IMG/VR virus record: IMGVR_UViG_3300015242_000020
Span: 71,565 to 135,564 of that record
Length of the DNA: 64,000 nucleotides
Source of the DNA: a virus
Reading direction: 5' to 3' (one strand)
Shown here: positions 1 to 63,966 of the stretch, piece after piece
Position numbering within the stretch: the first letter of the stretch is position 1
Layout: every line of letters starts with the position of its first letter
Program-made: the position numbers and the translations under genes
The notes under the pieces: model-generated
Told to the model about the DNA's origin: nothing
What the model saw: only the letters and a program-made list of their open reading frames with translations
The model's database searches: none

Positions 1-1494
1 GCCCTGAACCTGACCGGTCAGCTCACCATTACGCCAGGCCAGAATCCGCACTCCACCAGACTTCCGGATGTCCTTGGCCTTCCGACGTACATCGGTCCAA
101 GATGCCTGCACGTGAAAGAGGAAATCCGGCTCACCGGTATCCATGGCCTTGGTAGCGAATTTCATTGCTGAATCCCACAGCTTAGGCCACTCGAATTCTG
201 GATCTTTGACGGTCGCGACCACCTCAGGCTGGGATTGCACTGGCCGGACCATATCCTCACTCGATTCGAATACCCTGTTGCGGCCCTTGTTCGGAGTGAA
301 GCCAAACCCCCGGTAGAAATTCTGCAGCCGGGACTTGGTGCCGCCAAAGTCCGCTGAGGGGGTGAGGTCGACCCGCTTACCGTGTTGGTCAGCGTAATCG
401 AGCAGATCCCGCATGTAGGCAGATCCCTTGCCCTGACCGCGCCGGTCCTTGGGCACCACAATCTTGTTCAAAGTGAGCGAGTCGGGGCGTTCGGTCACGA
501 AATGTTCGAGACCAGGATGACGAGCATCGAGATACTCCATCACTCCGGAATTCGCTGCAACCTTTGCAGCTTTGGCATGCTGGACCGGAACCTTCGGACC
601 CCAGTACCCCTGCTCGGGGAGGTAATCGCCGGTCTGCTCGACATGCTCGGCCGGTACTTGGGCGGAGTAGACCGGCATGTCCTGGCTCGGGTCGGTCGGA
701 TGACGCCCAGCACTAGCGGCGTACTCCTTGGACAGTGAGACCCAATCCCCCGGATTGAAGTGTGTAGTGGATCCCGCCGGAGCGGACCGGTAAACCGTGA
801 CCATGCTGGAGCTGGGCTTCCCTCGCAGCTCGCGTAGTCGCTGCATGGTCTCGCCGATGCCGGGTTCGGATGTGTCGGCGTAATACTCCGGGTGGTCATA
901 GGTGTCGGCAGGCAGCGCACTCTCACCACTGGTGATGTCGGTGATCTTCGGACCGCGCTGTGGCCGATGGCTCATCCAGTATCCCTCGGCGGCCTGCTTG
1001 GCGGCAGTGTGCGGCATTGAGCTATTGAGGTTGTAGTGCACCCAGCCGTTGGCGTCGGCGGCAGGATGTGGCTCGTGCGGCCTCCAGGACACCCCCGTCA
1101 CCTGGACATCCCGCCCCTTGCGTACGGGCACCTCCTGCTCCCAGTGCTCGGGGCCGTGCACCTCGCGACGGTTCAGCATAAAGGGGCGCGTTTCAATGTC
1201 CTCGGGCGCCGGGTGCTCGGCGTGCAGGACGATCGGCAGATCGCTGCTGCCCGTGCGGGGGCTCTTGCTCGCGAACTCCCGCGCCTGACCGAGATCGGTT
1301 GACCAGTGCATACCGAGGGCACGCCGGGATGTCTGACTCAGAATCTTCTGGGCGATGTCCTCAGGAGATGCTGCGGGATCGTGGATGGCGTCATATGCCT
1401 TACCAGAGAGCCGGATAGAGATCCCCCGATGCACTGTTGGGGAAAACCCCTGCGCCCCGGTGATCAGCTCGGCGATGGCATCGATCTCGCTCAC
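1..1494 (-). CDS. Polyvalent head-region protein, partial (runs off the left edge): two ART-like domains, a GNAT acetyltransferase and the start of a further domain
   Basis: Absent from the ORF track. My translation from GTG 1494 (GTGA overlap with the upstream stop) is open for 498 codons to base 1. Motifs: VHRGIS...GMHWSTD...WEQEVPV; VTVYRSAP...GDWVSLSKEYA; IVVPKDRRGQGKGSAYM...LQNFYRGFGF. Confidence 0.8.
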   Translation of the reverse strand, partial: MSEIDAIAELITGAQGFSPTVHRGISIRLSGKAYDAIHDPAASPEDIAQKILSQTSRRALGMHWSTDLGQAREFASKSPRTGSSDLPIVLHAEHPAPEDIETRPFMLNRREVHGPEHWEQEVPVRKGRDVQVTGVSWRPHEPHPAADANGWVHYNLNSSMPHTAAKQAAEGYWMSHRPQRGPKITDITSGESALPADTYDHPEYYADTSEPGIGETMQRLRELRGKPSSSMVTVYRSAPAGSTTHFNPGDWVSLSKEYAASAGRHPTDPSQDMPVYSAQVPAEHVEQTGDYLPEQGYWGPKVPVQHAKAAKVAANSGVMEYLDARHPGLEHFVTERPDSLTLNKIVVPKDRRGQGKGSAYMRDLLDYADQHGKRVDLTPSADFGGTKSRLQNFYRGFGFTPNKGRNRVFESSEDMVRPVQSQPEVVATVKDPEFEWPKLWDSAMKFATKAMDTGEPDFLFHVQASWTDVRRKAKDIRKSGGVRILAWRNGELTGQVQG

Positions 1495-7139: not shown

Positions 7140-9214
7140 CAGGCCCGTACCAGCTCCGGATGGGCCCGGATGGTCTGGGTGGCTACCGCGACGCACTGTC
7201 GCAGCGTCAGGCTGGGATTGGAGGCCAGCACGTCGGAGGCGATCTGGTCGATCTTCTCCATCGGGCTCTGGTACTTGGCTCCGGTGGTGGCCGGGGTGTT
7301 GGCCTGGGAGAAATCATCGGAGGGGGAGGGGAGTGGCGCCATCGAGGTGCCATCGGCTGCCGCACCGGACTCCAGCGCCGGATTCGGCAGCGCATCCCCG
7401 AGCTGCCCACCACTGGAGGTGTCGCCGAACTGGCTGGAGGCATCAGGGGTCAGACCCAGCTGGCCAGGGTCATCATCAGGGGAGGGCATCGTGCCCATGG
7501 AGGCCGGGTTGCCCGGACCGTTGACCGTGAACGGGTTGTCAGCGGTGATGGTCAGCGTGGTCGGCACCTGCCAGGTCAGGTTGGTGTTGCTGACGTTGGT
7601 CGCCGATCCGGTCATGATGGTGCTCACCACCGAGGGCTGACTGACCTTTAGCGACTCCTCGGCCACCAGCCACGGCGCGCTGGGCTTCAGCTCGTTGCCG
7701 TCGGCGGTGTTCTTCACCTCGGTGTCTCCCAGCGGTACCCGATTGGCGTCGGTGTACTCGTCATGGATCCAGCCAGGCGTGGCCGGTGGATCAACATGCT
7801 GGTACCGGTCGGCACCGAAGGCGTCCTCGTTGAGCGCGACCGGATGGAAGGCACCCTCCTTGTCGAGGTAGCCCCAGTTCATGCCGGAGTGCTTAGACCA
7901 CTCCATGGCCCGGAACGCCGCCTCGGCCTTCTCCTGCGAGTCGTGGTGGGAGAGCACTTTGCCGGTGCCCTTCTGGGTGATCACCCACTCATCGCCACGC
8001 TTCTCGATGTACTGATTGGCCGACTTCAGCAGCGCATGTACGAGGTTGCGGCCGACCAACTCCTCGACCCGGGCGCGGGCTTCCTCCTTCGTGGGGTGGG
8101 TGCCCATCACCTGCGGGATGCCATGCTCATTGATGATCGCCGAGTGCCAGCCATCGCCCGGCTTGGCCTCGGCCACCCGGGGGGCGCGACCCAGCTTGTT
8201 GCCGTGCACGTCGTAGAGGGCGTCCCCGTTCCAGGTCATCCAGTTCTCCGCTCGCGCGGTCTTGGTGGCCTGGCGTCCCTGCTCCTGCACGGCGGCCGGT
8301 GCCGGCTCTCCGTGGTGGCGTTCGGCCTTCTCGGCGGCATCGGGCACATTGGCGTACAGCGCCGCCTGCTGCGCGAGTGCCTGCGCCTTGGTCGGGTGGG
8401 TGCCCTTGACGTCACCGATCGCATTGACCACCTTGAACTTCCCGGCGTCCTCACGGACGTAGTACGGCGCGTTGTCTGAGGTGACCTGTAGCGAGCCCTG
8501 CACGTAGGGGTCGGGGTCGGCCGGCTCGGAGTGGTCGTCATACCAGCCCGGGTTCATCTTCTGATCCTGGGCGGCCTCCTGGCCCTTCTCTACGCCGCTC
8601 TGGTAGTCGGGGTGACCACCGTGCTCGGCCAGGCCGGCGTTGTCGTCGTAGAGACCGTCCTCGTAGCCGGAGTCATACCGGGCCTGGTCGAATGGATGCT
8701 GCACGTCGGAGGGATCGATCTCCCCGTCGGCCTCAACCGTAAAATTTGGCTCCCGCCCCAGCGCCAGGGAGTACAGCTCGGTGAGATCGGCCAGGTCGAC
8801 CGGGTCAGTGCTGGCCAGCGCCAGTGCCTCGATCTCCTCGGCGAGTGCCTCGGCAATCTCACCCCGAGTGGCGAGCTGATGCAGCGGCCCATCCTCATCG
8901 GCCCAGTCAGCGGCCAGGGTCTTGATCCGGGCGTCCACCTTGGCCTGCAGCAGCAGGCCGTGGTCCTCCTTCAGGGAGGTGCGCACCTGATCCAGTAGCG
9001 CGGTGTCCTCCGGGGAGACCTGTGCCACCGCCTCGGTGACCCGGTCGGCCACCAGCATGTACCGGGCGTCGTACTCTCCGGGCGATCCGGCGGCGGCCAG
9101 GAATGCCCACGCCACCTGCTGGGCGGCGACCTTGGCCATGGCGTACACGCGCTGGTTCTGCTCGGCGGCGACATCGGTGGCTGCCGTGCTCCACATCATC
9201 TCGCTGGCGTCCAT
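7139..9214 (-). CDS. Large modular acidic head-region protein
   Basis: 691 aa; three short repeats ending (G/S)(T/H)H-x-(T/S)-x-x-x-A; located in portal operon. Confidence 0.75.
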   Translation of the reverse strand: MDASEMMWSTAATDVAAEQNQRVYAMAKVAAQQVAWAFLAAAGSPGEYDARYMLVADRVTEAVAQVSPEDTALLDQVRTSLKEDHGLLLQAKVDARIKTLAADWADEDGPLHQLATRGEIAEALAEEIEALALASTDPVDLADLTELYSLALGREPNFTVEADGEIDPSDVQHPFDQARYDSGYEDGLYDDNAGLAEHGGHPDYQSGVEKGQEAAQDQKMNPGWYDDHSEPADPDPYVQGSLQVTSDNAPYYVREDAGKFKVVNAIGDVKGTHPTKAQALAQQAALYANVPDAAEKAERHHGEPAPAAVQEQGRQATKTARAENWMTWNGDALYDVHGNKLGRAPRVAEAKPGDGWHSAIINEHGIPQVMGTHPTKEEARARVEELVGRNLVHALLKSANQYIEKRGDEWVITQKGTGKVLSHHDSQEKAEAAFRAMEWSKHSGMNWGYLDKEGAFHPVALNEDAFGADRYQHVDPPATPGWIHDEYTDANRVPLGDTEVKNTADGNELKPSAPWLVAEESLKVSQPSVVSTIMTGSATNVSNTNLTWQVPTTLTITADNPFTVNGPGNPASMGTMPSPDDDPGQLGLTPDASSQFGDTSSGGQLGDALPNPALESGAAADGTSMAPLPSPSDDFSQANTPATTGAKYQSPMEKIDQIASDVLASNPSLTLRQCVAVATQTIRAHPELVRA

Positions 9215-9243: not shown

Positions 9244-11265
9244 TCAGGCGTCCATGCCGACGTAGACCTCGCGTACCGGGGTCTGTACGTAGTCCTCGCT
9301 GGCGATCTCGGCGGCGATGACCATCAGGTCGCCATCCACCCAGATCGTGCCGCTACGGCTCGCTGAAGCCGCCAGCTCGTGGTCCCGGGAAGCGGTGGCG
9401 ATCATCTGGTCGGTGCGGGCGTCATACAGGCTGGCCTTGGTGGCTCCGGGGGTTTCCGGGCTGCTCATCGTCTGCGGGTCGCCATCAGGGGCGTCGGGCC
9501 ACTCACCCTCATCGCCGGGCCCGAGGGAGACCGAGTCGTTGGGGTCTGCGATCGGGGTGAAGTCCACACCGGAATTCAGTCCATCGGGCTCCGGGGTGAC
9601 GGCGGTCTTCGCGCTGTTGTTGCGAATGGACTCGTTGTTGGCCTGCCCGCTCCAGGGCGACGACGCCATATCGACCTTCCAGTTCGCGTTAGCTGCCTCA
9701 TCGGCGTTGCGGAACTGGCTGCGCACCTTCTGGATCGCATGCTCAGGACCGTGTCCGGCCGGTACGGAGACTGTCTCGGAGTGCTTGGCGCCGGAGGGAT
9801 GGGTGAACGAGACCTGGTACTGGCGACCGGCACCACTGGGACTGTTGGCGCTGACTTCCTCATCGTTGGCCTCACCGCTCCACGGAGAGGCAGCGGCGGC
9901 CTTCGGCGCCGACATCGACTGGGTGGCCTTGACGAACCGGCCGGAGTCGAACTTGGGGTTTCCCTGGGCGAAGTGATCGGCGAAGTGCTTGGCGACGGAG
10001 TCCTTGTCGCCCGGGTAGGAGGCGATCGCGTTCGCCACGTGCTGGTAGTGGCCCCGGCTGTAGTTGGCCGTGCCAACGCCGCCACGCACCTGGTATCCCT
10101 TGGACCCGGCGGCCTGCTGAAACTGGTCGCGGCGGTAGTGCGGGTTGGTGCCCATCAGGTGGTCAGCGAAGTGCTTGGCCAGCTGGTCGCGCTCGGGGTG
10201 GGTGGCAATCGTCGAGGCCAGGTCCTCGTAGTGCCGGCGAGCCCAGGCCACGGCGAGCCGCTCCATCAAGGCTTGGCGCTTGGCGCCCATCGAACGCACC
10301 GTGCCCGAGGGAGGCAGCACGGTCGGGCTGGCTGGGGTGTTGTCCACCGTCGGGGTGGCATCGCCGGAGTCACCGGCGTTGTTCTCCACGGCCGAGTCCG
10401 AGATCGGGTCGCCGCCACCGTCACCGGCCGGTTCGTTGCCCTCACCGAGGGAGAGGTTGTCGCTCGGGTCGGAGTGGGCCACCTCAGCGTCACCGGTGGG
10501 GGCCGGTGCGTTGATGTCATCCATCGGCTCGGATTCCACCAGCGGGGCGGTGATGGTGTCGTTGTTCGGGGTGGTGAGCATGTCGTTGGCGACCGTGTGG
10601 CCGGCCAGGTGACCCACGTGGTCCAGAAAGGTGCGCTGGGCAACCCCGGCGTCCTCACCGAACTGGCTGGCCAAGTGCGCAGACATGCCGATCGCCTGGA
10701 TAGCGAACTCCTCATGGTCGTCCCGGATCGCCTGGGCGGTGCGGGTGAACCACATGCTGGCCTCGGCGACCATCTTCTGGTCGCGCTCCATCGCGGTGTG
10801 CTCCGGCGCCTCCACATCCATGATCCAGTCCGAGGCCATCGAGGTGCGGATGGTGCCCGGGTTGGGGTTGTGGCTCCAGCGGTCCTGCGGCGCCTGGCTT
10901 TCGAAGTTCAGGCTGGCCTCATACCGCTGGGTGCTGATCCGCTCACTGCGGAGGTTCTCCAGCTCGGCGGCCAGGGTGCGCTGGGTCTGCAGGGTGGACG
11001 CGGCGGCCATGGCCTGCAGCAGGTCTACCTCCCGCTGCCGTGGCGAGATAGTTGTATCCGCCGCCTGCTCGGTGGACGCGGTCTTCTGCGGGGCACTTTG
11101 CATGCTCTGCTCCTGAGATTGAGCCATCTGCCGGCGGATTTTCTTCTGGTCACTGGAGGGGGCCCGACGGATGACCGACGGCAGCCGGCCACCCATGGGC
11201 TCGAACGTGGGCTCGTCCTCGGGGTCGACCCGCTTGGAGCGCGCTGCCACGTGGTGCTTGCCCAC
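9244..11265 (-). CDS. Large modular head-region protein with tandem NP(K/H)F/Y domains
   Basis: 673 aa; HYEDLA...HFADH...NPHYRRDQF and HYQHVA...HFADH...NPKFDSGRF; SPWSGxAN duplicated. Confidence 0.75.
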   Translation of the reverse strand: MGKHHVAARSKRVDPEDEPTFEPMGGRLPSVIRRAPSSDQKKIRRQMAQSQEQSMQSAPQKTASTEQAADTTISPRQREVDLLQAMAAASTLQTQRTLAAELENLRSERISTQRYEASLNFESQAPQDRWSHNPNPGTIRTSMASDWIMDVEAPEHTAMERDQKMVAEASMWFTRTAQAIRDDHEEFAIQAIGMSAHLASQFGEDAGVAQRTFLDHVGHLAGHTVANDMLTTPNNDTITAPLVESEPMDDINAPAPTGDAEVAHSDPSDNLSLGEGNEPAGDGGGDPISDSAVENNAGDSGDATPTVDNTPASPTVLPPSGTVRSMGAKRQALMERLAVAWARRHYEDLASTIATHPERDQLAKHFADHLMGTNPHYRRDQFQQAAGSKGYQVRGGVGTANYSRGHYQHVANAIASYPGDKDSVAKHFADHFAQGNPKFDSGRFVKATQSMSAPKAAAASPWSGEANDEEVSANSPSGAGRQYQVSFTHPSGAKHSETVSVPAGHGPEHAIQKVRSQFRNADEAANANWKVDMASSPWSGQANNESIRNNSAKTAVTPEPDGLNSGVDFTPIADPNDSVSLGPGDEGEWPDAPDGDPQTMSSPETPGATKASLYDARTDQMIATASRDHELAASASRSGTIWVDGDLMVIAAEIASEDYVQTPVREVYVGMDA

Positions 11266-55404: not shown

Positions 55405-56085
55405 TTATACGGCATGAGCAATAATCTGCCCCGCCTGCGACCACAGTGGCAGGCTCGCCATCCACAGCAGCGCGGCACCCTCAGCAGCGTGCGACCACAC
55501 GCCGGGAATGAGCAACACCGAGGCCGGCACGAAGATCCACTTGACGATCTCGGCCTCATCGGCGGTGCCGGTGGTCAACCGCAGCTTTTCTGGCAGTAGG
55601 TGACAGCGGTACCAGCGCTGGCCCTTGATCTTGATAGGCCACCACAGCGGCACCCCGGACTCGGTCATGTCATCGCCGAGGCAGTGCGTCAGATTGCCCA
55701 GGAACATCGTGCCGGCCAGCAGCAGGGTGATCTTGAGGGAGACACCGGCCAGAGCCAGCAGCGTGCCTATCAGGGCTCCGCAGGCCAACGCCCAGACCAT
55801 CGTGTGAGTGAGGTAGCGATGTGTGCCCTCGGCCTTGCGGTCCTTCGGTGTCTTGGTGGTGAGGTAGGCGATCCGGCTCAGGTGGCGCACCAGCCAGGAG
55901 AACACCGTGGTCAGCGGCGGCAGCGCCTTGGAGAACAGCGAGCCCGGAGCGTCGGAGTCCGGCAGCAACACCACCGCACCGGTCATCACGCCGACCCCGA
56001 TCCGCAATACCGGGTTACCGGAGTCCACAGCGGCAGTCAGTCCCGCGCCGGTAATCCAGCCCGTAAGCATGTGACTTTTCCCCAT
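55405..56085 (-). CDS. YdjM-like membrane metal-dependent hydrolase
   Basis: MGKSH, LLPDSD, HRYLTHT, HCLGDDMT.SGVPLWWP. Confidence 0.85.
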   Translation of the reverse strand: MGKSHMLTGWITGAGLTAAVDSGNPVLRIGVGVMTGAVVLLPDSDAPGSLFSKALPPLTTVFSWLVRHLSRIAYLTTKTPKDRKAEGTHRYLTHTMVWALACGALIGTLLALAGVSLKITLLLAGTMFLGNLTHCLGDDMTESGVPLWWPIKIKGQRWYRCHLLPEKLRLTTGTADEAEIVKWIFVPASVLLIPGVWSHAAEGAALLWMASLPLWSQAGQIIAHAV

Positions 56086-56094
56086 CAAATGGGG

Positions 56095-58215
56095 TCAGTC
56101 CCCGGCCACGGTGTAGGACACCGACGGACCGGCGCCCTCCCTGTCAATGTGCTTGAGGCTGACCAGGTTGCGCAGCGGGTCGGAGATACTGCGCGGGGCC
56201 AGAGACAGGAAGTCTGCGATCTTTTGCGGGGTGTCATGGCCCTTGGCCACAGCGATGAAGACGCGCTTTTCGGTGTCGGAGATGTCGGTGGGCACATCCG
56301 GTAGGTGCTCGGCCGGGACCTGGGCGGCGGGGGAGTCCGGCTTGAACTCCGGGATCGGGGGCAACCCCAGGCTGCTGGTCACCACCGGTGTCTTGGCCGG
56401 CCTGGTCATCACCTGACCACCTTCGACCTGCGACTTCAGCCGCTCGTGCTGCCTGCGGGCGATCTCGTGCCGGTTGAGGTAGGAGTCTCCGGCATGATTG
56501 GCCGAGCCGGCATCCAGCTCGATGTGCGGCCACATCTCGAAGAACTCCTCCACCGCCGGGTGCAGCGCCTCCGGATGCTTGAGCTTCTCGTTCTTCATCA
56601 GCAGCCAACGCCCCCGGAACGGCGCGGTGCGGACCTTGTTGCCGTCGGCGTCGATCGTGCCCACGGTGTAGCCGTAGCCGGGGATCTTGGGCAGCTTGGT
56701 CGGGTCCAGAGTCAGCTCCGGGATCAGCATGGCGGCGATCCGGGACTTCAGCCGAAGCACGATCACGTTGCCCTCCTGGATGGTGGAGCGCAGCCGCTCC
56801 AGGCCACCGAAGATCCGCAGGTCAGAGTGCTGGGAGGAGAACAGGAACGCGATACCGAGCTTGCGGGTGGTGGCGGCCAGGTCCTCCAGCCGCTGCGCCC
56901 ACTCCTTGTTGCGGGCCATCACATGCGACTCGTCCAGGATCACCATGATGCCGGGGTAGTCCGGAGTCGGGGTGAAGCCGGGCACACCATCGACGATTAG
57001 CTTGTTCTGCCGGAAATGCGCGATGGCCTCCAGCGCGTCAAGCATGATCTCGAACTGATCGGAGCGCACGAACCAGTCAGCGGAGTTCTTCAGCGGCGCA
57101 GAGGAGGCACCGTTCTGTCCGTCGCAGTACCAGATGGTGGTGTCTCCCCGCGACCGCAGGCTGATCGCGATCTGGTCGATCATCCGGGACTTACCCGAGC
57201 CGGTGGATCCGACGATGAAGCCGCCCCACATGCCGTTCTCGGTGTAGGTCCGCCACAGAGCCTCCCCCTTGCCATCGGCGTAGGGGCCCAACAGGACCTG
57301 GCCCTCATCGATCCGGGGTAGATCAAAAAAGACCGGCTTCTTGATCGGGGAGTTGTTCACCACTTGCAGGACCCCGGCGTACTGCAGCTTCGGGTGCTGC
57401 TCCCAGATCAGGTCCTCCATCGGCTTGTTCAGTGCGTGCTTCAGCCGATCGAGCAGGCCATACACCGACTGCACCGTGATGGTGCCTTGGCGGGGCAGCG
57501 GGACCGTCCAGGCCTCGGTGTGGTTGGTGCGCTGGTAGTCCCCCAGCGGGATCCCCTCCAGCGTGCCGCTCTTGCAGGAGACGTAACGGGCCCACGCCAC
57601 CGGAATGGTCTCCCCCGGCGGGCGAACCTCCTCGGTCGCGGTGGGGTAGGGGTGACGGTGCCGGGGCCACCAGCGCAGGGCCACGGTCATCTCTGCAATC
57701 AGCAGGTAAAACGCCAGGGTCCAGTCCAGGCCGCGTACCGTGCACCAGCACAGCCATAGGCCGCCGAGCACCACCGCGAGGTCAGCCCATAGTCGCTCGT
57801 GGGAGCGGGCCTTCTTGGCCACCAGGTGGATCAGGGCCGCCAGGACGCCGCCGACCAGGGTGACCACCAGCAGGGTCAGCTCCGGGACGCTGTGGGAGAG
57901 CTGGCGGGCGTAGTAGAGCCCCTCTCCCAGACCGGCCAGTCCTCCGGCGATCAGGTGCGGATAGGCGGATTTACGGCATCGGTATAGCGCCGACTGCCGC
58001 TGCGCCCAGGAGAGCTTGACGACCTGCTGGGCAGGCGCGGCGGCCTGCTGCAGTGCAGCGACCGGCTTCTTGGTCTTGGGATCGATGTAGGTACCGGCCC
58101 GACGGTTGTCCCGAATCAGCTGCCGGGTCCCGTTCTTGACGATCTTGCGCTGGGCCGCCGCCACCTGGGCCGGAGAGAGCTTGGGAGACGCCTTGGTCCT
58201 GGGCTTGTTGGCCAC
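56095..58215 (-). CDS. TraB-like FtsK/SpoIIIE DNA translocase
   Basis: About four N-terminal TMs; Walker A GSTGSGKS; Walker B VILDESH; RKLGI...SQ; PGYGY; C-terminal winged helix. Confidence 0.85.
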   Translation of the reverse strand: MANKPRTKASPKLSPAQVAAAQRKIVKNGTRQLIRDNRRAGTYIDPKTKKPVAALQQAAAPAQQVVKLSWAQRQSALYRCRKSAYPHLIAGGLAGLGEGLYYARQLSHSVPELTLLVVTLVGGVLAALIHLVAKKARSHERLWADLAVVLGGLWLCWCTVRGLDWTLAFYLLIAEMTVALRWWPRHRHPYPTATEEVRPPGETIPVAWARYVSCKSGTLEGIPLGDYQRTNHTEAWTVPLPRQGTITVQSVYGLLDRLKHALNKPMEDLIWEQHPKLQYAGVLQVVNNSPIKKPVFFDLPRIDEGQVLLGPYADGKGEALWRTYTENGMWGGFIVGSTGSGKSRMIDQIAISLRSRGDTTIWYCDGQNGASSAPLKNSADWFVRSDQFEIMLDALEAIAHFRQNKLIVDGVPGFTPTPDYPGIMVILDESHVMARNKEWAQRLEDLAATTRKLGIAFLFSSQHSDLRIFGGLERLRSTIQEGNVIVLRLKSRIAAMLIPELTLDPTKLPKIPGYGYTVGTIDADGNKVRTAPFRGRWLLMKNEKLKHPEALHPAVEEFFEMWPHIELDAGSANHAGDSYLNRHEIARRQHERLKSQVEGGQVMTRPAKTPVVTSSLGLPPIPEFKPDSPAAQVPAEHLPDVPTDISDTEKRVFIAVAKGHDTPQKIADFLSLAPRSISDPLRNLVSLKHIDREGAGPSVSYTVAGD

Positions 58216-58267
58216 GCGTTATCCCTCCCTGGTGCTCTCTCCGGCTGTGGTGCGGTGTGCTGTGGGG

Positions 58268-59827
58268 CTACTCGCCCCGGATGAAATCCTCGCGACCCAC
58301 CGCTCCCGCCACGGCGTTCATCGAGTCGGCGACCGGTCCGCGAGTAGCCAGCTCGTCGTAGACGTCAGACGCGGCGGCGGTGGATGCCGCAAGCAGGTCC
58401 TGCAACTTGGCCAGGTGCTCGTGCACCGGACCGCCGACCTCGTTCTGCGAGAGACTGGCGGCGAACTGCTCGACTTTCTGGGCCAGCTCCGGGAAGTAGT
58501 TCTTCAGTTCCTCGGCGTGGTCGAGTGCGGTGGAGAGGCCGGTGACCTCTCCGGTTGATGTGGTCATGGAGCGTGTCCTTTCGGCGGACGGTTGTACTGC
58601 ATCCCGAGGTCCGTCCTCGGAAGTCTGTGAGCGCACCACTCCGTCGTAATCGGGAGTGTCATCGCGGGTGACTATCTGGGTGTGATGTCGGCCGAGGTAC
58701 CCCTCGTCGCCATCGTCGGTGGTGATCCAGGTGCCCTCGTCATCGTGATGCACCTCGGTGATGAATGTTCCGTCGCTGAGCTGATCTCCCTGCCGCAGCT
58801 CGGCGACGGGGACTCGGATCTTGCCGGCGGCGGCCAGGAAGCGCTCGGGATTGAACCTAGGGACCGAGTTCTGCAGGTGATCGATCAGATCATGGGCCAG
58901 CGGGGTGCCGTGTTCGGCCTCGTATGCACGCGTGGCCTCGGCCAGGAAGGTGAGCTTTCCTCCGGTGTACTTCGGGGACGCGGTGCCACCCCGGACCTGG
59001 TAGTCCGGCGTTGAGGCGGCCTCGATGAACTGCTGTGGCCGGAATGCCGCGTTGCCGCTGTCGCGCAACTCGGCGGCGAAGAATCGGCCGAGCAGCTCGC
59101 GATCTTGGCGCCGGGAGATGAACGCGGCGAGGTCCTCGTACTCCTTGCGCCCCCAGCCACTGCCGGGACGTACCAGGACTTGCGCGCCGGAGGGCTCGAC
59201 CGCTACCCGCCCGCGCTTCTCGTACTCCTCATCCCATAGCCCCGGCCAGCCAATCAGGGCCGGCCGAACGCCGTGCTTGCGGACGTAGTTACGCAGCTCT
59301 GTGAGCTGCTCGTGCTCGATGGTGCCGGGGGTCTGATGGCGCAGCTCGGCGACGATCTCGTCCTCGGTGTGCGCGCCGATGTATCCGGAGGAAGCCAGCG
59401 CCTCCAGCGCCCGATGGGTGGAGGGTCCCTGCCACTGAGCGGCGGCGACCCGAGCCTGGGCGTCGGGGGGCGTGTTCACGCCGGAGAGAGGGGCTTGCTT
59501 GAGCTTGACCGTCCGGTCGTACACGGCCAGCGCCTCGTCCTCGGTGAAGTCCTTCAGGAACGCTGAGTACTCATCCCGGGTCGCGGTGTAGGGATCCTCG
59601 TAGCCGTCGGGATCGGAGTACCAGCCGTGGGTGCCGTCGAAGTCGGAGGAGGAGTAGCTGGTGAGGCCACGCTGGGACAGCTCGTGGTGCACCGCCTCGG
59701 CGAGGGTCTCGTCTTCGTCGGGATCGATCTCGATGTCCTCGTCGAACTCGCGGATCTTGGTCGGCTCGTCGGCGTCCTCTTCCCAGGGCGCATACCGGTC
59801 GGTGTGCAGATGCAGGGTGCGACTCAT
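58268..59827 (-). CDS. Mosaic multi-module protein ending in a TGEV helical domain
   Basis: Open frame from ATG 59827; modules shared with 7139-9214, 9244-11265 and 59863-60768; internal RBS+ATG at 58567. Confidence 0.75.
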   Translation of the reverse strand: MSRTLHLHTDRYAPWEEDADEPTKIREFDEDIEIDPDEDETLAEAVHHELSQRGLTSYSSSDFDGTHGWYSDPDGYEDPYTATRDEYSAFLKDFTEDEALAVYDRTVKLKQAPLSGVNTPPDAQARVAAAQWQGPSTHRALEALASSGYIGAHTEDEIVAELRHQTPGTIEHEQLTELRNYVRKHGVRPALIGWPGLWDEEYEKRGRVAVEPSGAQVLVRPGSGWGRKEYEDLAAFISRRQDRELLGRFFAAELRDSGNAAFRPQQFIEAASTPDYQVRGGTASPKYTGGKLTFLAEATRAYEAEHGTPLAHDLIDHLQNSVPRFNPERFLAAAGKIRVPVAELRQGDQLSDGTFITEVHHDDEGTWITTDDGDEGYLGRHHTQIVTRDDTPDYDGVVRSQTSEDGPRDAVQPSAERTRSMTTSTGEVTGLSTALDHAEELKNYFPELAQKVEQFAASLSQNEVGGPVHEHLAKLQDLLAASTAAASDVYDELATRGPVADSMNAVAGAVGREDFIRGE

Positions 59828-59862
59828 CAGGGACTCCAACACACGTCAGGGTTTGGATACAT

Positions 59863-60768
59863 CTATCCAGCCTTGTCCTGCAGGAATCCCTGAGTGCCGG
59901 CTGGACCCTCGACATTACTATAAGAATCCTTGACAACCAACCGCGTGCCCAGCTCCTTGCCTGCTGCCTGCGCCTCGTACTCGGCGGCGTTGGTCGCGCT
60001 CCAGGTCTCCCCCAGATGCTCCAGCACCGGACCGTCGACCTTGTAGGTGGTGTGCAGGGTGTCGTAGAGGGCCTCGATCCTGCGACAGGTGTTGTGCAGG
60101 GTCTGCGCGAGCAGCTCGCAGTAGTCGATGGCCTGGGTCAGGGAGAAGACCTCACCAGTCGGAGCCGACTCCGGCAGCTGGCTCTCGGTGGCACCAGATA
60201 CTTCTATCCGATCCGGTGAGATAGAAGTATCTGACTCATCGGAGAGGTCCGTCTGAGCGGTCCGGTGTGGGATCGCCACCGGGACCGACCGGACCGCCTG
60301 CGGGTCACCCTCGATGGTCTCCGGGAATCCGGTCCGCTCCGCTGCCGCGTTTCGCTGATCCAGCGAGCTGTCCTCGTAGTCGTCCTCGATCGGGGTGTAG
60401 TCCGGGTCTGACCCTCCACCGGACCGGCGAGCCTTGCGGTCCGCCTGTCGAGCGGTCCGGCGCTCCATCCGGTCCCTGGTCCGGTCCTCGGCCTTTTGGA
60501 CCTTATAGGGCCGCTTGACCTGGTGCTTGGCGGACCGCTTGGCGTGGGCCTGCTCGGAGGCGTCGTGCAGCAGACCGGAGAAGTACCGGCCCACCCCGGT
60601 CCGGGGGACCGACTTGCCGCCGTTGCCGGCCCGCTGGCGCAGCTTGGCCATCCGGTACTCGTGGCTCGGCGGGTACTTCCCCCGCAGCGTGAAGGGCAGG
60701 TCGATCAGGTCCTTCAGCGAGCCCTTGGCCGCGATATAGACGATCAGCCACCACAGTGCGATCTCCAT
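59863..60768 (-). CDS. Transfer-module protein (N-terminal hydrophobic, basic middle, TGEV helical C-terminus)
   Basis: C-terminal TGEVFSL...VDGPVLEHL...GF matches 58268-58567. Confidence 0.7.
   Translation of the reverse strand: MEIALWWLIVYIAAKGSLKDLIDLPFTLRGKYPPSHEYRMAKLRQRAGNGGKSVPRTGVGRYFSGLLHDASEQAHAKRSAKHQVKRPYKVQKAEDRTRDRMERRTARQADRKARRSGGGSDPDYTPIEDDYEDSSLDQRNAAAERTGFPETIEGDPQAVRSVPVAIPHRTAQTDLSDESDTSISPDRIEVSGATESQLPESAPTGEVFSLTQAIDYCELLAQTLHNTCRRIEALYDTLHTTYKVDGPVLEHLGETWSATNAAEYEAQAAGKELGTRLVVKDSYSNVEGPAGTQGFLQDKAG
60258..60611. repeat. Cluster of GGACCG/CGGTCC hexamers (candidate clt-like site)
   Basis: 12 copies in 354 bp, counted by eye. Confidence 0.55.
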
Positions 60769-60771
60769 GGC

Positions 60772-61206
60772 CTACCAGCCCGCTGCCAGGTCTTGGACGG
60801 TCTGGATGACCGTGTTCATGATCGAGGTGGTGGCGTGGTTGGCGTCCACCGACAGCAGCGCCCAGGAACCCCCGGCGGCCGTCAGGATGGCCGGCAGGAT
60901 GAACATCAGGAAGTCGGCGGCATTGTGGCCACTGGCGCCCTTGGGGATCAGCTTGAAGAACAGCCAGATCGCCAGTCCGAGCAGCAGCAGCAACGGGGTC
61001 GCGGTGCCGAAGAACTTGGCGCTGGTGACGTCGGTGGCGTGCTCCAGCAGGTGCACCACCTTCAGCACGATCTTATCGATCGCGCCGAGGCCGAGAGTGG
61101 CGCCGGCACCGAAAAACATCCAGGCCCGGATCCGAGGGATCTTGCCCTCGAACCGGGCGATGAGGGCGGCCACAAAGAGCACCGCGCCGATAGAGGCAAC
61201 AGGCAT
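60772..61206 (-). CDS. Multi-TM membrane protein (Spd-like)
   Basis: About four TMs; GAAGGA RBS. Confidence 0.7.
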   Translation of the reverse strand: MPVASIGAVLFVAALIARFEGKIPRIRAWMFFGAGATLGLGAIDKIVLKVVHLLEHATDVTSAKFFGTATPLLLLLGLAIWLFFKLIPKGASGHNAADFLMFILPAILTAAGGSWALLSVDANHATTSIMNTVIQTVQDLAAGW

Positions 61207-61230
61207 CAGGGGAATCCTTCCGTACGTGCG

Positions 61231-61632
61231 TTACCAGGGGTGAGGGAGAAAGCGGCCAAAGGGGGTCAGGGACAGCACCGCCCACAGCGCCCAGGTCGCC
61301 AGCAGCCGGGTGGGCCGCTCCACGATCCAGTCGGCGTAGGCCAGCAGGGCCCGTACCGGCAGTGCCAGCACGGCGTAGACGAGCAGCGCGAGCCGGGCCA
61401 GTCCCTCCGGCGGGGCGGAGCCACCGTGGTGCAGGTAGCGCCAGGTGTCGGCCAGTCCGGGGCGACCCTTGGCGACCACTTCGGGCGGACGGAACTCGGA
61501 GGTGAACCAGGCCAGCAGGTCTCTATACGCGCGCGTGCGTGACGGGCTGGTGCGTTGGCCCAGAAATCCGACTTCCGAGTTGGCTTCCTCCGCCGAGTTG
61601 CCGAGTTGCTCGTGCATGGTCAGATCAGTCAT
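61231..61632 (-). CDS. Membrane protein (AICE transfer-region type)
   Basis: RPP...LA..W.Y...ALPV...WIVERPTRL; two TMs. Confidence 0.65.
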   Translation of the reverse strand: MTDLTMHEQLGNSAEEANSEVGFLGQRTSPSRTRAYRDLLAWFTSEFRPPEVVAKGRPGLADTWRYLHHGGSAPPEGLARLALLVYAVLALPVRALLAYADWIVERPTRLLATWALWAVLSLTPFGRFLPHPW

Positions 61633-61865
61633 GCCCGCTCCTTCGCTATCCGCCAGGCCATCAGCCGGGCTGCTGAGTCGGCGAGCTGGGTCACGATGAT
61701 GTCGGCCTCGGTCGCTATGGCCTCCTCGCTGGACACCGCGATGGCGGCCCTGAGGTGGTCATAGGCGACCGCGATCCGGGCCTTGGGGGTCTTGGCCAGG
61801 GGGAGCCGTTCGGTGAACGCCAAGGTGCGCCTACGGGCTCGGCCGGCCGGGGAGATGCCGGGCAT
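61629..61865 (-). CDS. Small hypothetical protein
   Basis: R.AVAYDHLRA; translationally coupled. Confidence 0.6.
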   Translation of the reverse strand: MPGISPAGRARRRTLAFTERLPLAKTPKARIAVAYDHLRAAIAVSSEEAIATEADIIVTQLADSAARLMAWRIAKERA

Positions 61866-62098
61866 TACTTGGCCGCCCGGAAGTTCATGAGCACAGCCCG
61901 GTTACCCCGGTTGCGCAGCCGCAGCTCATACCGACTCAACGCGTGCTCCTTGTCGCCGTTGAAGCTCTTCATCGCATCCAGCAAGATCTGCCGCAGATCC
62001 TTGGCGTTGTTCGGGTCGACGTAGGACTGGAAGGTCTTGCGCACTCCGCCGCGCCAGGCCAGGTCGATGTCGTAGATGCCGGGCTTGAGAGTGGCCAT
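61865..62098 (-). CDS. Small hypothetical protein
   Basis: Coupled on both sides (TGATG/TAATG). Confidence 0.6.
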   Translation of the reverse strand: MATLKPGIYDIDLAWRGGVRKTFQSYVDPNNAKDLRQILLDAMKSFNGDKEHALSRYELRLRNRGNRAVLMNFRAAK

Positions 62099-62985
62099 CA
62101 GGCGCCTCCCACCACGTGCAGGCCGCGCTGGTCGCGCTCGTGCTTGAGCACCGCCACCAGCTTGTTGGCGCGGTCGGTGGAGATCGAGATGTTGTTGCCC
62201 CGGAACTCCGCGAGCAGCTTGTTCCGGGAGAGGTTGCCGTTCAGCTTCCGGGAGACCTCCCGGCCGGCGTCTTTGACGTCCTCCAGGCCAGCCCAGCTGG
62301 GTGTCTCCGGTGCCGCGTGCCGGGCCGGGTAGGGCTCGACCGGAGCGGTCTTGGGTGCCGGCCGGACCGGCAGCGTGTCCGGCAGCGGGTCACCAGTGAC
62401 CGGAGTGGGCAGGACCGAGGCGGGGACCGGGCTCGGGTGGACCTCGCTGGTCCGGTCCGGCTCGGCGGCCACTCGCCCGATCGTGGCGGTCAGGGCGTTG
62501 CGCAGTCGGGGAGCAGAGGACACCACCAGGAAGACACCCACCACTGGGACCGAGTGCAGCAGGACCAGTCGAGCGTTGAGGTCCGACCAGGCGGACCAGG
62601 TGTTCATCAGATAGGTCATAGTCAGCGCTCCCCACTTGACCGCCAGACCGGCGGTCGGGGTCCGGCCCCCGTGGGAGGAGATGATCTGGTCCACCAGCAG
62701 GACCGCCACTAGAGGCAGCGCCACGGTGGGGTCCAGTCCCCAGGCGAACCACCAGGTCAGGGAGCCGACCGGGGCGCCGTGAGCGGCGAACTGCTGCACG
62801 TTGGAGGCGGTGTAGGACAGGCCGATGACCACGGCCGTCCAGATCACCAGGTTGAAGAGGGTGCGCTGCCGCTCGATGGTGAGGGCCCGGACGTGCGGGC
62901 TCTGCTGGGCGGTGCGCACCTCGGCGGCCTCGGCGGCAGCGCTCTTCAGCCGGGCGGCACGGGTGGGAGACACACTCTCGGTCAC
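62098..62985 (-). CDS. SpdA/DUF2637-like membrane protein with C-terminal DNA-binding-like helices
   Basis: Four TMs, AWGLDP, LHSVP, Pro-rich linker, LSRNKL...ISTDRANKL; GTG 62985 after GAGAGGG. Confidence 0.65.
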   Translation of the reverse strand: MTESVSPTRAARLKSAAAEAAEVRTAQQSPHVRALTIERQRTLFNLVIWTAVVIGLSYTASNVQQFAAHGAPVGSLTWWFAWGLDPTVALPLVAVLLVDQIISSHGGRTPTAGLAVKWGALTMTYLMNTWSAWSDLNARLVLLHSVPVVGVFLVVSSAPRLRNALTATIGRVAAEPDRTSEVHPSPVPASVLPTPVTGDPLPDTLPVRPAPKTAPVEPYPARHAAPETPSWAGLEDVKDAGREVSRKLNGNLSRNKLLAEFRGNNISISTDRANKLVAVLKHERDQRGLHVVGGA

Positions 62986-63098
62986 CGTTCGGTCCCTCTC
63001 GGTTGTCGGACAGCGGAAAGCTGATGGTACGACCCGAGAGTGGAGATTGATCGGCTTGGTTCGAAGTTTTCCTCGAACTATTCCGGGCAAGTATAGCG

Positions 63099-63135
63099 GA
63101 CCGGACCGGTCCAAGGATGTTGGACCGGTCCGGTC
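63099..63135. promoter_or_regulatory. Perfect 16-bp inverted repeat upstream of the transfer operon
   Basis: GACCGGACCGGTCCAA-ggatg-TTGGACCGGTCCGGTC; TATACT on the minus strand at 63090-63095. Confidence 0.65.
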
Positions 63136-63180
63136 TTCTGAGCGTGGAGAGATAGAAGTATGCGCTGCCTCCCGGTCATG

Positions 63181-63966
63181 TCACCTACGTATGTCGAGCT
63201 TCCTTTGCAACTTGACCATCTCCAGACCACTCATCTTGCGTCCGCTCGGCAGAGTGAATTCCTGCTTCAGATCCACATTGGTCGCACCGACCCACATCAG
63301 GTACTTGACGTCTTCCTGGCGGATGTCCTCCGACCGATCAGACTGAACCCTCTCTTCGGGCTCGGACGACAAACCGAAGGCCTGGTCGAGTGATTCGAGG
63401 ACAACCCGGGTGTGCTCCTTGGCGGACAGACCGGAGACCTCGACCTCGACCTGGATCCGATTCTGCTCGATCCGCCTCCACTTGGCCGCGATCGCAGCGA
63501 TCCCCTCGACACAGTCCTTGAGCGGGTCGGAGGTGGTCCGAACATGCTGATGAGGACCGGACGTGCCCTCCAGAACGGCCAGCCGTTTGGCCTCCACCCA
63601 GAGCGTCTCAGCGGTGGATCGGCTCTCGGCGGGAATGGAGTAGTACTCCCGGCGGGCCTTCTCCATCAGTCCGGCCAGTGATCCGTGCAACGTGATGCGA
63701 GCCCGGTAGCTGGCAATGCGCAGGCCGAGCAATGTCAGGAAGATCGCGGCATAGGCCACTGCCACGATGAGATGAAAAGGCTGCGGCGGCACCGGGACAA
63801 GCAGAGATGACATCAGGCCACCGACGCCGTAGAGGAGAAATATCCACGGCCAGGCGTCCTTCGGCACAGCAGCACCGGCTCGGACGAACCGGCCCGCGTT
63901 CGGCTTGGTGAGCTGGTACCTGTCCGGACTGCTCCCCGGTCGGGGGATGGATCCTCGATAGCCCAT
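63181..63966 (-). CDS. Membrane protein
   Basis: Two TMs then a helical region. Confidence 0.65.
   Translation of the reverse strand: MGYRGSIPRPGSSPDRYQLTKPNAGRFVRAGAAVPKDAWPWIFLLYGVGGLMSSLLVPVPPQPFHLIVAVAYAAIFLTLLGLRIASYRARITLHGSLAGLMEKARREYYSIPAESRSTAETLWVEAKRLAVLEGTSGPHQHVRTTSDPLKDCVEGIAAIAAKWRRIEQNRIQVEVEVSGLSAKEHTRVVLESLDQAFGLSSEPEERVQSDRSEDIRQEDVKYLMWVGATNVDLKQEFTLPSGRKMSGLEMVKLQRKLDIRR

What the first reader, a model, noticed from the sequence alone, without database searches (positions are those of the whole stretch)
58268..59827. Protein next to TraB is a mosaic of modules also found in head-region proteins
Seen: (a) WGRKEYEDLA...FRPQQFIEAA..DYQVRGG....Y...PRFNPERFLAAAG (about 58825-59160) matches WARRHYEDLA...YRRDQFQQAA..GYQVRGG....Y...NPKFDSGRFVKA (about 9925-10250), including the YQVRGG linker. 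(b) ARVAAAQW...LEALASSGYI...EI...LTEL (about 59285-59460) resembles ARIKTLAADW...LHQLATRGEI...EI...LTEL (about 8770-8935). (c) Its last 99 aa match the end of 59863-60768. Inference: the same cargo domains are attached to both virion-region and transfer-region carriers, suggesting two delivery routes and long co-residence of the transfer module with the phage.
Basis: partly seen in the sequence, partly recalled or inferred. Interest (0 to 1): 0.75.

Follow-up and report, generated by a model that had tools for sequence, protein, structure and literature searches.

The report
Mosaic protein beside a phage TraB
A soil phage carries a plasmid-style DNA-transfer gene cluster, and the protein next to its TraB motor is a chain of five small modules, some of which also occur in large proteins encoded near the phage's head genes.

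Summary
The ORF (window 58268-59842, minus strand, 524 aa) is real. Match (a) to the 673-aa head-region ORF (E 6e-17) and match (c) to the 301-aa neighbour (E 4e-10) are confirmed. Match (b) to the 691-aa ORF is weak and partial: it appears only in profile searches.

A search of 1.84 billion proteins splits the ORF into five modules, N-B-A-D-C. Each also exists elsewhere as a small stand-alone protein, and none has a Pfam family. A close relative of the phage lacks module N.

Module C is a helical hairpin. It marks the gene immediately upstream of TraB-like translocases in actinomycete plasmids and genomes. The phage's 301-aa ORF is that conserved neighbour, and the 524-aa ORF is an extra, cargo-bearing paralogue. 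A third copy of C lies inside a 1769-aa head-region protein.

The 706-aa neighbour is a plasmid-type TraB relative: 128 plasmid records match it and none of 50,697 phage records does. It sits in a syntenic Tra/Spd-like cluster.

My reading is that C docks its bearer to the TraB membrane complex. This is inferred, not shown. Delivery by two routes is untested.

The parts
58268..59842 (-). 524-aa mosaic ORF (519 aa from the ATG at 59827), with modules N-B-A-D-C
   Evidence: (GC3 0.83)
59489..59842 (-). Module N (aa 1-118). It is found alone as 100-125-aa proteins, and is absent from the close relative.
59201..59488 (-). Module B (aa 119-214). It is found alone as 93-102-aa proteins.
58808..59200 (-). 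Module A (aa 215-345): a tandem duplication of a ~55-aa three-helix unit joined by the Y-Q-V-R-G-G linker
58649..58825 (-). Module D (aa ~340-398). It is found alone as 50-59-aa proteins.
58271..58648 (-). Module C (aa 399-524): a disordered linker, then a helical hairpin and a conserved C-terminal tail
59863..60768 (-). 301-aa ORF: an N-terminal hydrophobic helix, a basic region and module C. It is the phage's copy of the conserved TraB-upstream gene.
56095..58215 (-). 706-aa TraB-like FtsK-family ATPase
9898..10269 (-). Module A copy inside the 673-aa head-region ORF (9244-11265)
8774..8935 (-). Weak, partial module-B-like stretch (aa 94-147) of the 691-aa ORF (7139-9214)
1..1494 (-). 5' part of the 1769-aa ORF (genome 67749-73058). 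Its module C copy (aa ~1290-1411) lies left of the window.
60772..63966 (-). Upstream genes of the Tra/Spd-like cluster: 144-aa, 133-aa, 77-aa, 338-aa and 261-aa ORFs, mostly with predicted membrane helices
55405..56088 (-). YdjM-family membrane hydrolase downstream of TraB. Homologues lie in the same plasmid and genome loci.

Best explanation
The window is the right half of a 135.6-kb actinobacterial myophage. Its right end carries a plasmid-type Tra/Spd-like cluster: membrane proteins, a 301-aa protein with a C-terminal hairpin, a TraB-like FtsK-family ATPase and a YdjM hydrolase.

The 524-aa ORF lies between the 301-aa gene and TraB. It is a genuine fusion of four small accessory modules (N, B, A, D), each encoded elsewhere as a separate small gene. 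These are attached to module C, the helical hairpin that characterises the gene immediately upstream of TraB-like genes in actinomycete plasmids.

Shown:
- The modular make-up of the ORF.
- That each module occurs on its own elsewhere.
- The gain or loss of module N between close relatives.
- The link between module C and TraB neighbourhoods.
- Further copies of A, C and (weakly) part of B in large mosaic proteins around the portal gene.

Inferred:
- The hairpin is an adaptor that docks its bearer to the TraB/Spd membrane complex. It could do so by bundling with the hairpin of the membrane-associated 301-aa paralogue or by binding TraB. That would place the N-B-A-D modules where DNA crosses the membrane.
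- The head-region proteins use the same modules inside polyvalent-type proteins that are probably packaged in the virion.

The activity of the modules is unknown. My guess is that they act on host takeover or on protection of incoming DNA.
For: Modularity
- phmmer against 1.84e9 representatives gave 53 hits at E<=1e-3. They tile the query as five separate blocks, each with stand-alone hits, and iterated local profiles give clean block boundaries.
- P0002 (85% identical, 414 aa) starts at module B. Contigs of 59,442 and 93,717 bases in runs X3/X4 replace 657 bases (59236-59894) with 317 other letters, while the 301-aa gene and the start of TraB stay in place.
- In viral contig L014, a module B gene lies ~500 bases after a module N gene.

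Module C and TraB
- The ORF just upstream of the TraB-like gene matches the C profile at E 2.6e-13 (L009), 2.6e-11 (L012), 1.2e-6 (L019) and 4.5e-6 (L026).
- It matches weakly at 3e-3 (L011), 0.014 (L021), 0.026 (L022) and 0.059 (L010).
- The N-terminus of the 301-aa ORF matches the same upstream ORFs in L009 (E 1e-15) and L019 (E 1.5e-8).
- The 133-aa, 338-aa and YdjM ORFs also have homologues in these loci.
- The AlphaFold2 model of C is a hairpin (helices 38-68 and 74-102) with block pLDDT 89-94.

TraB
- NCBIfam plasmid_TraB matches at E 3e-15.
- tblastn finds 128 actinomycete plasmid records and 0 of 50,697 phage records.
- The Walker A and B motifs are conserved, and there are two hydrophobic helices near the N-terminus.

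Head region
- The portal is at 3997-6150.
- The 636-aa ORF has a 2H phosphoesterase domain, and the 1769-aa ORF has weak GNAT and ParB-like hits.
- P0010 (1406 aa) joins the two ends of the 691-aa ORF to the module A of the 673-aa ORF.
- L025 has module A in a 921-aa ORF beside homologues of the 673-aa and 636-aa ORFs.
- Iyer et al. 2017 (PMC5512222, passages read) describe the same domains used both in capsid-packaged and in conjugation-delivered polyvalent proteins.
Against: - No result shows that the hairpin binds anything. The one complex prediction I planned could not be run.
- A helical hairpin is a generic fold. Four of the eight upstream-gene matches are weak (E 0.003-0.06) and could partly reflect alanine-rich helices.
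- The upstream gene in L024 and all ORFs of the seven distant short contigs L027-L033 gave no C match.
- The annotated TraA of a Streptomyces traA-traB plasmid shows no similarity to C (hhalign probability 0.8%).
- None of the modules has a known family or fold. Pfam gave nothing for the 524-aa ORF, and only one sub-threshold, unrelated Pfam match appeared among its 51 homologues. Module A has no fold match. The 'accessory/takeover' role therefore rests on context alone.
- No evidence shows that the 673-, 691- or 1769-aa proteins are in the virion.
- No RNA data are available.
- The host is unknown.
- Match (b) is weak.
Confidence: 0.55

Rival explanations
1. The shared modules are cargo sent into cells by two routes: inside the virion on the head-region proteins, and through the TraB channel on the 524-aa protein, so that the same effectors arrive by either route.
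For: - The same modules (A, partly B, C) occur in both gene regions.
- Polyvalent proteins of phages and of conjugative elements are proposed to travel with the DNA (PMC5512222, passages).
- The head-region ORFs carry 2H and GNAT-like domains typical of that class.
Against: - To my knowledge (recalled, and consistent with the abstract of PMC4447253), TraB-type systems move double-stranded DNA and are not known to export proteins.
- No virion or recipient proteomics exist.
- Module C looks like a resident of the Tra complex rather than cargo.
Confidence: 0.15
2. The 524-aa protein is simply a structural or accessory subunit of the TraB/Spd complex, a second copy of the TraB-upstream protein. 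The sharing of modules with head-region proteins is a by-product of the free shuffling of small domains in actinophage gene pools and has no functional link between the two regions.
For: - Most pSVH1 transfer proteins interact in one complex (PMC4447253, abstract).
- The plasmid upstream proteins are 440-610 aa, with variable middles and module C at the end.
- The intragenomic copies are only 26-33% identical and do not group together.
Against: - Modules N, B, A and D were found in none of the plasmid or genome Tra loci scanned: 0 of 4 plasmid and 0 of 6 genome loci. Stand-alone N genes lie among small unknown genes of viral contigs.
- Four of the six paralogous pairs in the whole genome link these two regions.
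Confidence: 0.22
3. The TraB-like ATPase works like the FtsK-family ATPases of type VII secretion (EccC/EssC), and the hairpin proteins are its substrates. They would be recognised through the hairpin and its conserved C-terminal tail, so that the 524-aa protein is secreted.
For: - Module C is a ~90-residue helix-turn-helix hairpin with a conserved tail.
- Two adjacent genes carry it.
- Foldseek lists WXG100 and ESAT-6 structures among many hairpins (E 3.2-3.6).
- NCBIfam gives faint P-loop matches to EccCa and EssC (E 0.003-0.03).
Against: - There is no W-x-G motif; the turn reads V-G-G-P.
- The fold matches are not significant.
- The best family match of the ATPase is plasmid TraB, and its relatives are annotated with winged-helix DNA-binding ends.
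- It has one ATPase domain, whereas EccC/EssC have several (recalled).
Confidence: 0.06
4. The fusion is an artefact: a chimeric assembly, or several small genes run together by sequencing errors.
For: - The record is a metagenome assembly.
- Each module exists elsewhere as a separate gene.
Against: - The frame is open, with uniform GC3 of 0.83.
- One contig of X1 spans 58573-60621 with 2 differences, and X2 from another study agrees where it covers the stretch.
- P0002 and P0003 from other assemblies keep B-A-D-C and N-B-...-C in one protein.
Confidence: 0.02

Closest known systems
Polyvalent proteins of phages and conjugative elements (Iyer, Burroughs, Anand, de Souza, Aravind 2017; PMC5512222)
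   Same: - Several unrelated domains sit in one polypeptide.
- Each domain also occurs alone.
- They are encoded beside a packaging or transfer apparatus.
- The same domains are used in phage-head and in conjugation contexts.
   Different: - None of that class's signature domains was detected in the 524-aa ORF.
- The transfer context here is the actinomycete TraB double-stranded-DNA system, not a type IV secretion system.
- Both contexts lie in one phage genome.
- I did not see the paper's supplementary domain lists, which may or may not include these modules.
TraB / Spd conjugation apparatus of Streptomyces plasmids (e.g. pSVH1; PMC4447253, abstract)
   Same: - An FtsK-like ATPase with N-terminal membrane helices sits in a cluster of small membrane proteins.
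- The gene order is shared with Amycolatopsis, Saccharothrix and Pseudonocardia plasmids.
   Different: - The cluster sits in a 135-kb myophage.
- The ATPase is only 22-31% identical to plasmid homologues and scores far below NCBIfam's TraB cut-off (55.8 against 800 bits).
- No convincing clt-like repeat set was found.
- An extra cargo-bearing hairpin gene lies between the conserved upstream gene and TraB.
Plasmid transfer protein TraA (the gene upstream of traB in Streptomyces plasmids)
   Same: - It occupies the same position, immediately upstream of traB (L034).
- An ESM Atlas feature search listed a 'TraA-like' cluster at score 0.79, which is a lead only.
   Different: - There is no detectable sequence similarity (hhalign probability 0.8%).
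- NCBIfam gave no TraA match.
MuF-type and other capsid-internal fusion proteins of tailed phages
   Same: Large mosaic proteins are encoded next to the portal, with conserved ends and exchangeable inner modules (Finch gp12/gp13).
   Different: - No MuF domain was detected.
- Packaging of these proteins is not shown.

Membership tests
Polyvalent proteins (Iyer et al. 2017) | Two or more unrelated domains in one polypeptide, each also found alone | tested here: met
   Five blocks, each with stand-alone hits
Polyvalent proteins (Iyer et al. 2017) | Encoded by a phage or conjugative element next to its packaging or transfer genes | tested here: met
   It is adjacent to the TraB-like gene in a phage record
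Polyvalent proteins (Iyer et al. 2017) | Carries the class's recurrent domains (ArdC-N, metallopeptidase, methylase, helicase, ART and others) | tested here: not met
   Pfam, PHROGs and NCBIfam gave no family for the 524-aa ORF. The paper's own domain models were not available.
Polyvalent proteins (Iyer et al. 2017) | Delivered into the recipient together with the DNA | not testable with these tools
   Needs proteomics or transfer assays
Plasmid TraB (NCBIfam NF041214), for the 706-aa neighbour | Score above the curated cut-off | tested here: not met
   55.8 bits against a cut-off of 800; E 3e-15 over aa 243-518
Plasmid TraB (NCBIfam NF041214), for the 706-aa neighbour | FtsK-like P-loop ATPase with Walker A and B motifs | tested here: met
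   The G-x-x-G-x-G-K-S and D-E columns are invariant in an alignment with 4 plasmid homologues
Plasmid TraB (NCBIfam NF041214), for the 706-aa neighbour | N-terminal membrane helices and a C-terminal winged-helix DNA-binding domain | tested here: inconclusive
   A crude hydropathy scan finds two hydrophobic segments at aa 108-160. The C-terminal region aligns with homologues annotated as winged-helix or sigma-70-like, but no domain model matched it.
Plasmid TraB (NCBIfam NF041214), for the 706-aa neighbour | A cis-acting clt locus of short repeats recognised by TraB | tested here: inconclusive
   A cluster of the 9-mer CCGGACCGC lies at 60027-60634. However, 2 of 25 simulated genomes reach the same exact-8-mer clustering.
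TraA of Streptomyces plasmids / Pfam TraA-like (PF28214), for module C | Sequence similarity to TraA | tested here: not met
   hhalign of the C profile against the annotated TraA of L034 gives probability 0.8%. NCBIfam gave no hit. PF28214 itself does not seem to be in the Pfam copy held.
TraA of Streptomyces plasmids / Pfam TraA-like (PF28214), for module C | Gene immediately upstream of traB | tested here: met
WXG100 / ESAT-6-like proteins, for module C | A ~100-residue helix-turn-helix hairpin | tested here: met
   AlphaFold2 model
WXG100 / ESAT-6-like proteins, for module C | W-x-G motif in the turn, and significant fold or sequence match | tested here: not met
   The turn is V-G-G-P in most members. 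Foldseek E values are 3.2-3.6, and a profile search of PDB sequences listed no WXG100 entry.

The most novel reading that the evidence does not exclude
The phage has domesticated a TraB/Spd-type double-stranded-DNA translocon to push its own genome from one hyphal compartment to the next without making virions. Module C would then be an address tag that brings protein modules to sites of DNA passage: to the TraB channel on the 301- and 524-aa proteins, and to the capsid or ejected DNA on the 1769-aa protein. The same helper modules would accompany the genome whichever way it enters a cell.
Probability: 0.1. Interest if true: 0.9.

Novelty: new variant of a known kind. Interest (0 to 1): 0.6.

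Why it matters
Shuffling of domains among phage proteins is ordinary, and the idea that phages and conjugative elements reuse the same domains in multidomain proteins is in print. Three things are unusual here.

- A complete plasmid-type TraB cluster lies in a large lytic-looking myophage. The TraB protein found no relative in 50,697 phage records. My literature searches turned up only generic 'FtsK-like' mentions in actinophages.
- A previously unnamed hairpin domain marks the gene upstream of TraB across several actinomycete genera.
- That domain, and other unnamed modules, link the transfer cluster with the head-region proteins of the same phage.

If the hairpin proves to be an adaptor for the TraB complex, two things follow. 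It gives a handle on how accessory proteins are recruited to the poorly understood actinomycete conjugation apparatus. It also makes testable the question of what a phage does with such an apparatus.

Tried and rejected
Complex prediction
- The job was the hairpin of the 301-aa ORF with the hairpin of the 524-aa ORF, from alignments A9 and A1. I handed it in 13 times. It was never queued because the queue was full, so there is no result.

Fold and structure searches
- Module C: Foldseek against PDB found nothing at E<=1e-3, only generic hairpins. A profile search of PDB sequences gave a best E of 0.008, to PduA, which I judge meaningless.
- Module A: nothing from Foldseek against PDB (best E 0.68), VIA wide (best Z 5.3, far below the level that means anything for helical bundles) or BFVD (best E 0.37, to 51-86-aa unnamed phage proteins).
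- Profile searches of PDB sequences found nothing for modules N and A. For module D they gave only insignificant SH3-domain rows (E 0.03).
- Modules N, B and D were not folded.

ESM Atlas
- The search with module C gave a 'TraA-like' cluster at score 0.79, which is only a lead.
- The search with the 301-aa ORF gave no usable hit.

Searches for relatives
- tblastn of the 524-aa ORF found nothing in phages, even at E<=1, and nothing in plasmids at E<=0.01.
- blastn of 56000-61000 against phages found nothing.
- The 691-aa ORF found nothing in phages.
- The search for related loci found nothing in viral contigs for TraB, P0003 or P0005, and nothing in metagenome contigs for the 524-aa ORF.
- Alignments A1 and A2 were too variable to search with.
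- Relatives cannot be drawn for a virus record.

Other steps
- The full-length alignment A7 was misaligned, so I did not use it.
- The clt-like repeat idea: the 8-mer clustering is reached by 2 of 25 simulated genomes, so I keep it only as a lead.
- No RNA holder was listed among the sequencing runs.
- Earlier findings of this scan: none by place, by sequence or by words.
I stopped that step, so the alignment used for the module A fold has 8 rows.
Full report
WHAT THE WINDOW IS

The window is bases 71565-135564 of a 135,564-base virus record rated 93% complete. A gene call based on GC3 gives 130 ORFs, nearly all on the minus strand. PHROG matches identify:
- a contractile-tail set (sheath, baseplate, tape measure), a major head protein and a protease fusion, all left of the window;
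- a portal at window 3997-6150 (phrog_2833, E 3e-128);
- a replication block at about 34-48 kb.

The portal's nearest cultured relatives are large actinobacterial myophages: Gordonia phage Pupper, Rhodococcus phages Finch and E3, and Mycobacterium phages such as Phrappuccino, Caravan and McWolfish. Identity is only 29-35%. This is therefore a distant new lineage, and its host is unknown.

CHECK OF THE OBSERVATION

The ORF at 58268-59842 (-) is 524 aa.
- Match (a), to the 673-aa ORF, is real: 33% identity over 117 residues, E 6e-17.
- Match (c), to the 301-aa neighbour, is real: 31% over 119 residues, E 4e-10.
- Match (b), to the 691-aa ORF, fails in BLASTP, with best E 1.9.

For (b), a profile of eight module-B homologues built without the 691-aa ORF finds aa 94-147 of that ORF. 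It is the only other hit among 130 ORFs (E 8.4e-6, 19 bits; next best 0.38). A shallower profile-profile comparison gives E 0.002 but probability only 13.5%. I count (b) as a weak, partial resemblance.

A further copy of the C-terminal module lies at aa ~1290-1411 of a 1769-aa ORF whose 5' end is in the window. In the whole genome only six paralogous pairs reach E<=1e-3, and four of them are these.

THE PROTEIN IS A CHAIN OF FIVE INDEPENDENT MODULES

phmmer against 1.84 billion representative proteins gave 53 hits at E<=1e-3, which fall into five non-overlapping blocks. Local iterated profiles confirm the boundaries.

| Module | Residues | Stand-alone or other forms found |
|---|---|---|
| N | ~1-118 | about 20 small proteins of 102-125 aa, and a few longer proteins that also hold the module |
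| B | ~119-214 | proteins of 93-102 aa |
| A | ~215-345 | 116- and 191-aa proteins; also inside proteins of 528, 664, 673 and 1406 aa |
| D | ~340-398 | eight proteins of 50-59 aa |
| C | ~399-524 | a 102-aa protein; also the C-terminus of proteins of 191-516 aa |

The 524-aa ORF has no Pfam family. Among its 51 homologues the only Pfam row is one sub-threshold, unrelated match, and only 4 of 51 have any PHROG match.

Module A is an internal duplication of a ~55-residue unit (hhalign of the two halves: probability 98%, E 8e-14). It folds with confidence into 2 x 3 helices (pLDDT 83.5, pTM 0.80), and no structural relative was found.

Module C folds into a helical hairpin, with core pLDDT around 90. 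Its only structural matches are generic hairpins.

THE FUSION IS REAL AND THE MODULES MOVE

- A 2049-base contig of run X1 covers 58573-60621 with two differences.
- Run X2, from another study, agrees exactly where it covers the stretch.
- Runs X3 and X4, from a third study, hold a relative on contigs of 59,442 and 93,717 bases. It aligns at 58058-59236 and 59894-61000 but has 317 other letters in place of 59236-59894.

This fits P0002 (414 aa, 85% identical), which begins at module B. Two closely related phages therefore differ by the presence of module N, while keeping the order 301-aa gene, mosaic gene, start of TraB.

P0003 has N, B, a different middle and C. P0005 has B, other sequence and C. 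In viral contig L014 a module B gene lies about 500 bases after a module N gene.

Stand-alone N genes in five viral contigs sit among small unnamed genes. One is near a serine recombinase and another near a WhiB gene.

THE NEIGHBOUR AND ITS CLUSTER

The 706-aa ORF matches NCBIfam plasmid_TraB at E 3e-15. At 55.8 bits it is far below the curated cut-off of 800.

tblastn finds relatives in 128 actinomycete plasmid records, 109 of them Streptomyces. The best are from Amycolatopsis, Saccharothrix and Pseudonocardia, at 24-31% identity and E down to 6e-45. One match is annotated traB. None of 50,697 phage records matches.

The Walker motifs are conserved, and two hydrophobic segments lie near the N-terminus.

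I fetched 5 of the 128 plasmid loci, 6 genome loci and 8 metagenome loci. Matches of the ORF immediately upstream of the TraB-like gene to the module C profile were:

| Locus | E-value |
|---|---|
| L009 | 2.6e-13 |
| L012 | 2.6e-11 |
| L019 | 1.2e-6 |
| L026 (only its last 36 residues are on the contig) | 4.5e-6 |
| L011 | 3e-3 |
| L021 | 0.014 |
| L022 | 0.026 |
| L010 | 0.059 |

There was no match in L024, and none in any ORF of the seven short, distant contigs L027-L033. L020 and L023 have no upstream flank.

Other genes of the cluster have homologues in the same loci:
- The N-terminal part of the 301-aa ORF matches the same upstream ORFs in L009 (E 1e-15) and L019 (E 1.5e-8).
- The 133-aa ORF has homologues in L009, L010, L011 and L021.
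- The 338-aa ORF has a homologue in L012.
- The YdjM hydrolase has homologues in L010 and L021.

Five full-length unnamed homologues of the 301-aa ORF (291-312 aa, 36-76% identical) exist in metagenomes. One is on the 93,717-base contig of the relative.

The 301-aa ORF is thus the phage's copy of a conserved TraB-upstream gene, and module C is that gene's hallmark. In a classical Streptomyces plasmid the gene in this position is annotated traA. The C profile shows no similarity to that TraA (probability 0.8%), so I claim only a positional analogy.

THE HEAD-REGION PARTNERS

The 673- and 691-aa ORFs lie just upstream of the portal. The 636-aa ORF (2H phosphoesterase domain) and the 1769-aa ORF (weak GNAT and ParB-like matches) lie just downstream of it. 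Rhodococcus phage Finch has large unnamed genes in the same positions.

P0010 (1406 aa) unites the N- and C-terminal ends of the 691-aa ORF with a module A that is 49% identical to that of the 673-aa ORF. It also carries a Lar-like zinc ribbon. Viral contig L025 has module A in a 921-aa ORF beside homologues of the 673- and 636-aa ORFs.

These are mosaic proteins with conserved ends and exchangeable middles. They are of the kind described as capsid-packaged polyvalent proteins (PMC5512222, passages read). Whether they are packaged here is not shown.

HOW IT MOST LIKELY WORKS

Shown:
- the modular anatomy of the protein;
- the independence and mobility of the modules;
- the tie between module C and TraB neighbourhoods;
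- the reuse of A, C and perhaps part of B in head-region proteins.

Inferred: module C is an adaptor. In pSVH1, TraB and the Spd proteins interact in one DNA-translocation complex (PMC4447253, abstract). Here a hairpin is present both on a protein with an N-terminal hydrophobic helix (301 aa) and on a soluble multi-module protein (524 aa) encoded side by side. The simplest explanation is hairpin bundling or binding to TraB, which would hold the N-B-A-D modules at the translocon.

I could not test this, because the complex prediction was never accepted by the queue. What the modules do is unknown. Their occurrence as small genes among small unnamed genes of viral contigs, and inside head-region mosaic proteins, suggests roles early after DNA entry. 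That is a guess.

CO-RESIDENCE

The Tra region has the same GC3 as the rest of the genome (0.845 against 0.823 +/- 0.046). Its tetranucleotide distance is unremarkable: 14 of 64 equal-sized segments are further from the genome mean. The cluster is also kept in the relative.

The three intragenomic copies of C are 26-31% identical to one another, and the two module A copies are 33% identical. In a poorly resolved tree (2 of 12 inner branches well supported), the C module of the 524-aa ORF groups with those of other soluble cargo-bearing proteins, not with the phage's own 301- or 1769-aa copies. The copies are therefore old, or were acquired separately.

NOVELTY

Domain shuffling and polyvalent proteins are known, and FtsK-like genes are mentioned in Streptomyces phages (10.1101/2024.02.16.580700 and PMC13587820, passages).

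I found no report of a plasmid-type TraB cluster in a phage, or of this hairpin domain. This rests on three full-text searches, whose listings I scanned, and on the papers named above. Subscription journals and supplementary files were not covered.

I rate the finding a new variant of a known kind, of moderate to good interest. The interest lies mainly in the phage-borne TraB cluster and its unnamed adaptor-like domain, rather than in the mosaicism itself.

Noticed in passing
window 60027-60634 (inside the 301-aa ORF): This stretch holds a cluster of the 9-mer CCGGACCGC on both strands: 10 of the window's 69 matches (up to 1 mismatch) lie within ~610 bases, including 3 of the 5 exact copies. 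It was the top 8-mer cluster in the whole genome. However, 2 of 25 order-3 Markov simulations reach the same exact-8-mer clustering. It is a possible clt-like TraB recognition site, kept as a lead only.
   Followed up: partly
window 55405-63966 and the contig end at 64000: The whole Tra/Spd-like cluster sits at the extreme right end of the linear record and at the head of the long minus-strand gene array. It may therefore be among the first genes transcribed. Whether the record's ends are true genome ends is unknown.
   Followed up: no
genome 67749-73058 (window 1-1494 and to the left): A 1769-aa ORF downstream of the portal combines a ParB-C-like stretch (phrog_2579, E 1e-24), a weak GNAT match, other PHROG blocks and an internal copy of the TraB-neighbour hairpin. 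It is a candidate giant polyvalent protein.
   Followed up: partly
window 2100-4010 (-): A 636-aa ORF right after the portal carries a 2H phosphoesterase (2'-5' RNA ligase superfamily) domain: Pfam E 2e-8, above the cut-off. A homologue lies next to the module-A protein in viral contig L025.
   Followed up: partly
genome 55004-56194 (left of the window) and 64420-64752: The phage encodes an RtcB-type RNA ligase (phrog_1075, E 2e-135) and an Lsr2-like nucleoid protein (phrog_1223, E 1e-19).
   Followed up: no
window 52036-53187 (-): A 383-aa ORF with collagen-like repeats (Pfam Collagen, E 1e-10) lies between the replication block and the DinG-like helicase, far from the tail genes.
   Followed up: no
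window 27146-29284 (-): A 712-aa ORF has no PHROG or Pfam match. No terminase large subunit was recognised anywhere in the record by the PHROG scans of ORFs of 90 aa or more.
   Followed up: no
P0001 compared with window 58268-58300: A 99%-identical database variant of the protein ends differently in its last ~10 residues, so the conserved C-terminal tail of module C is altered in that copy. This may be a sequencing error or a real variant.
   Followed up: no
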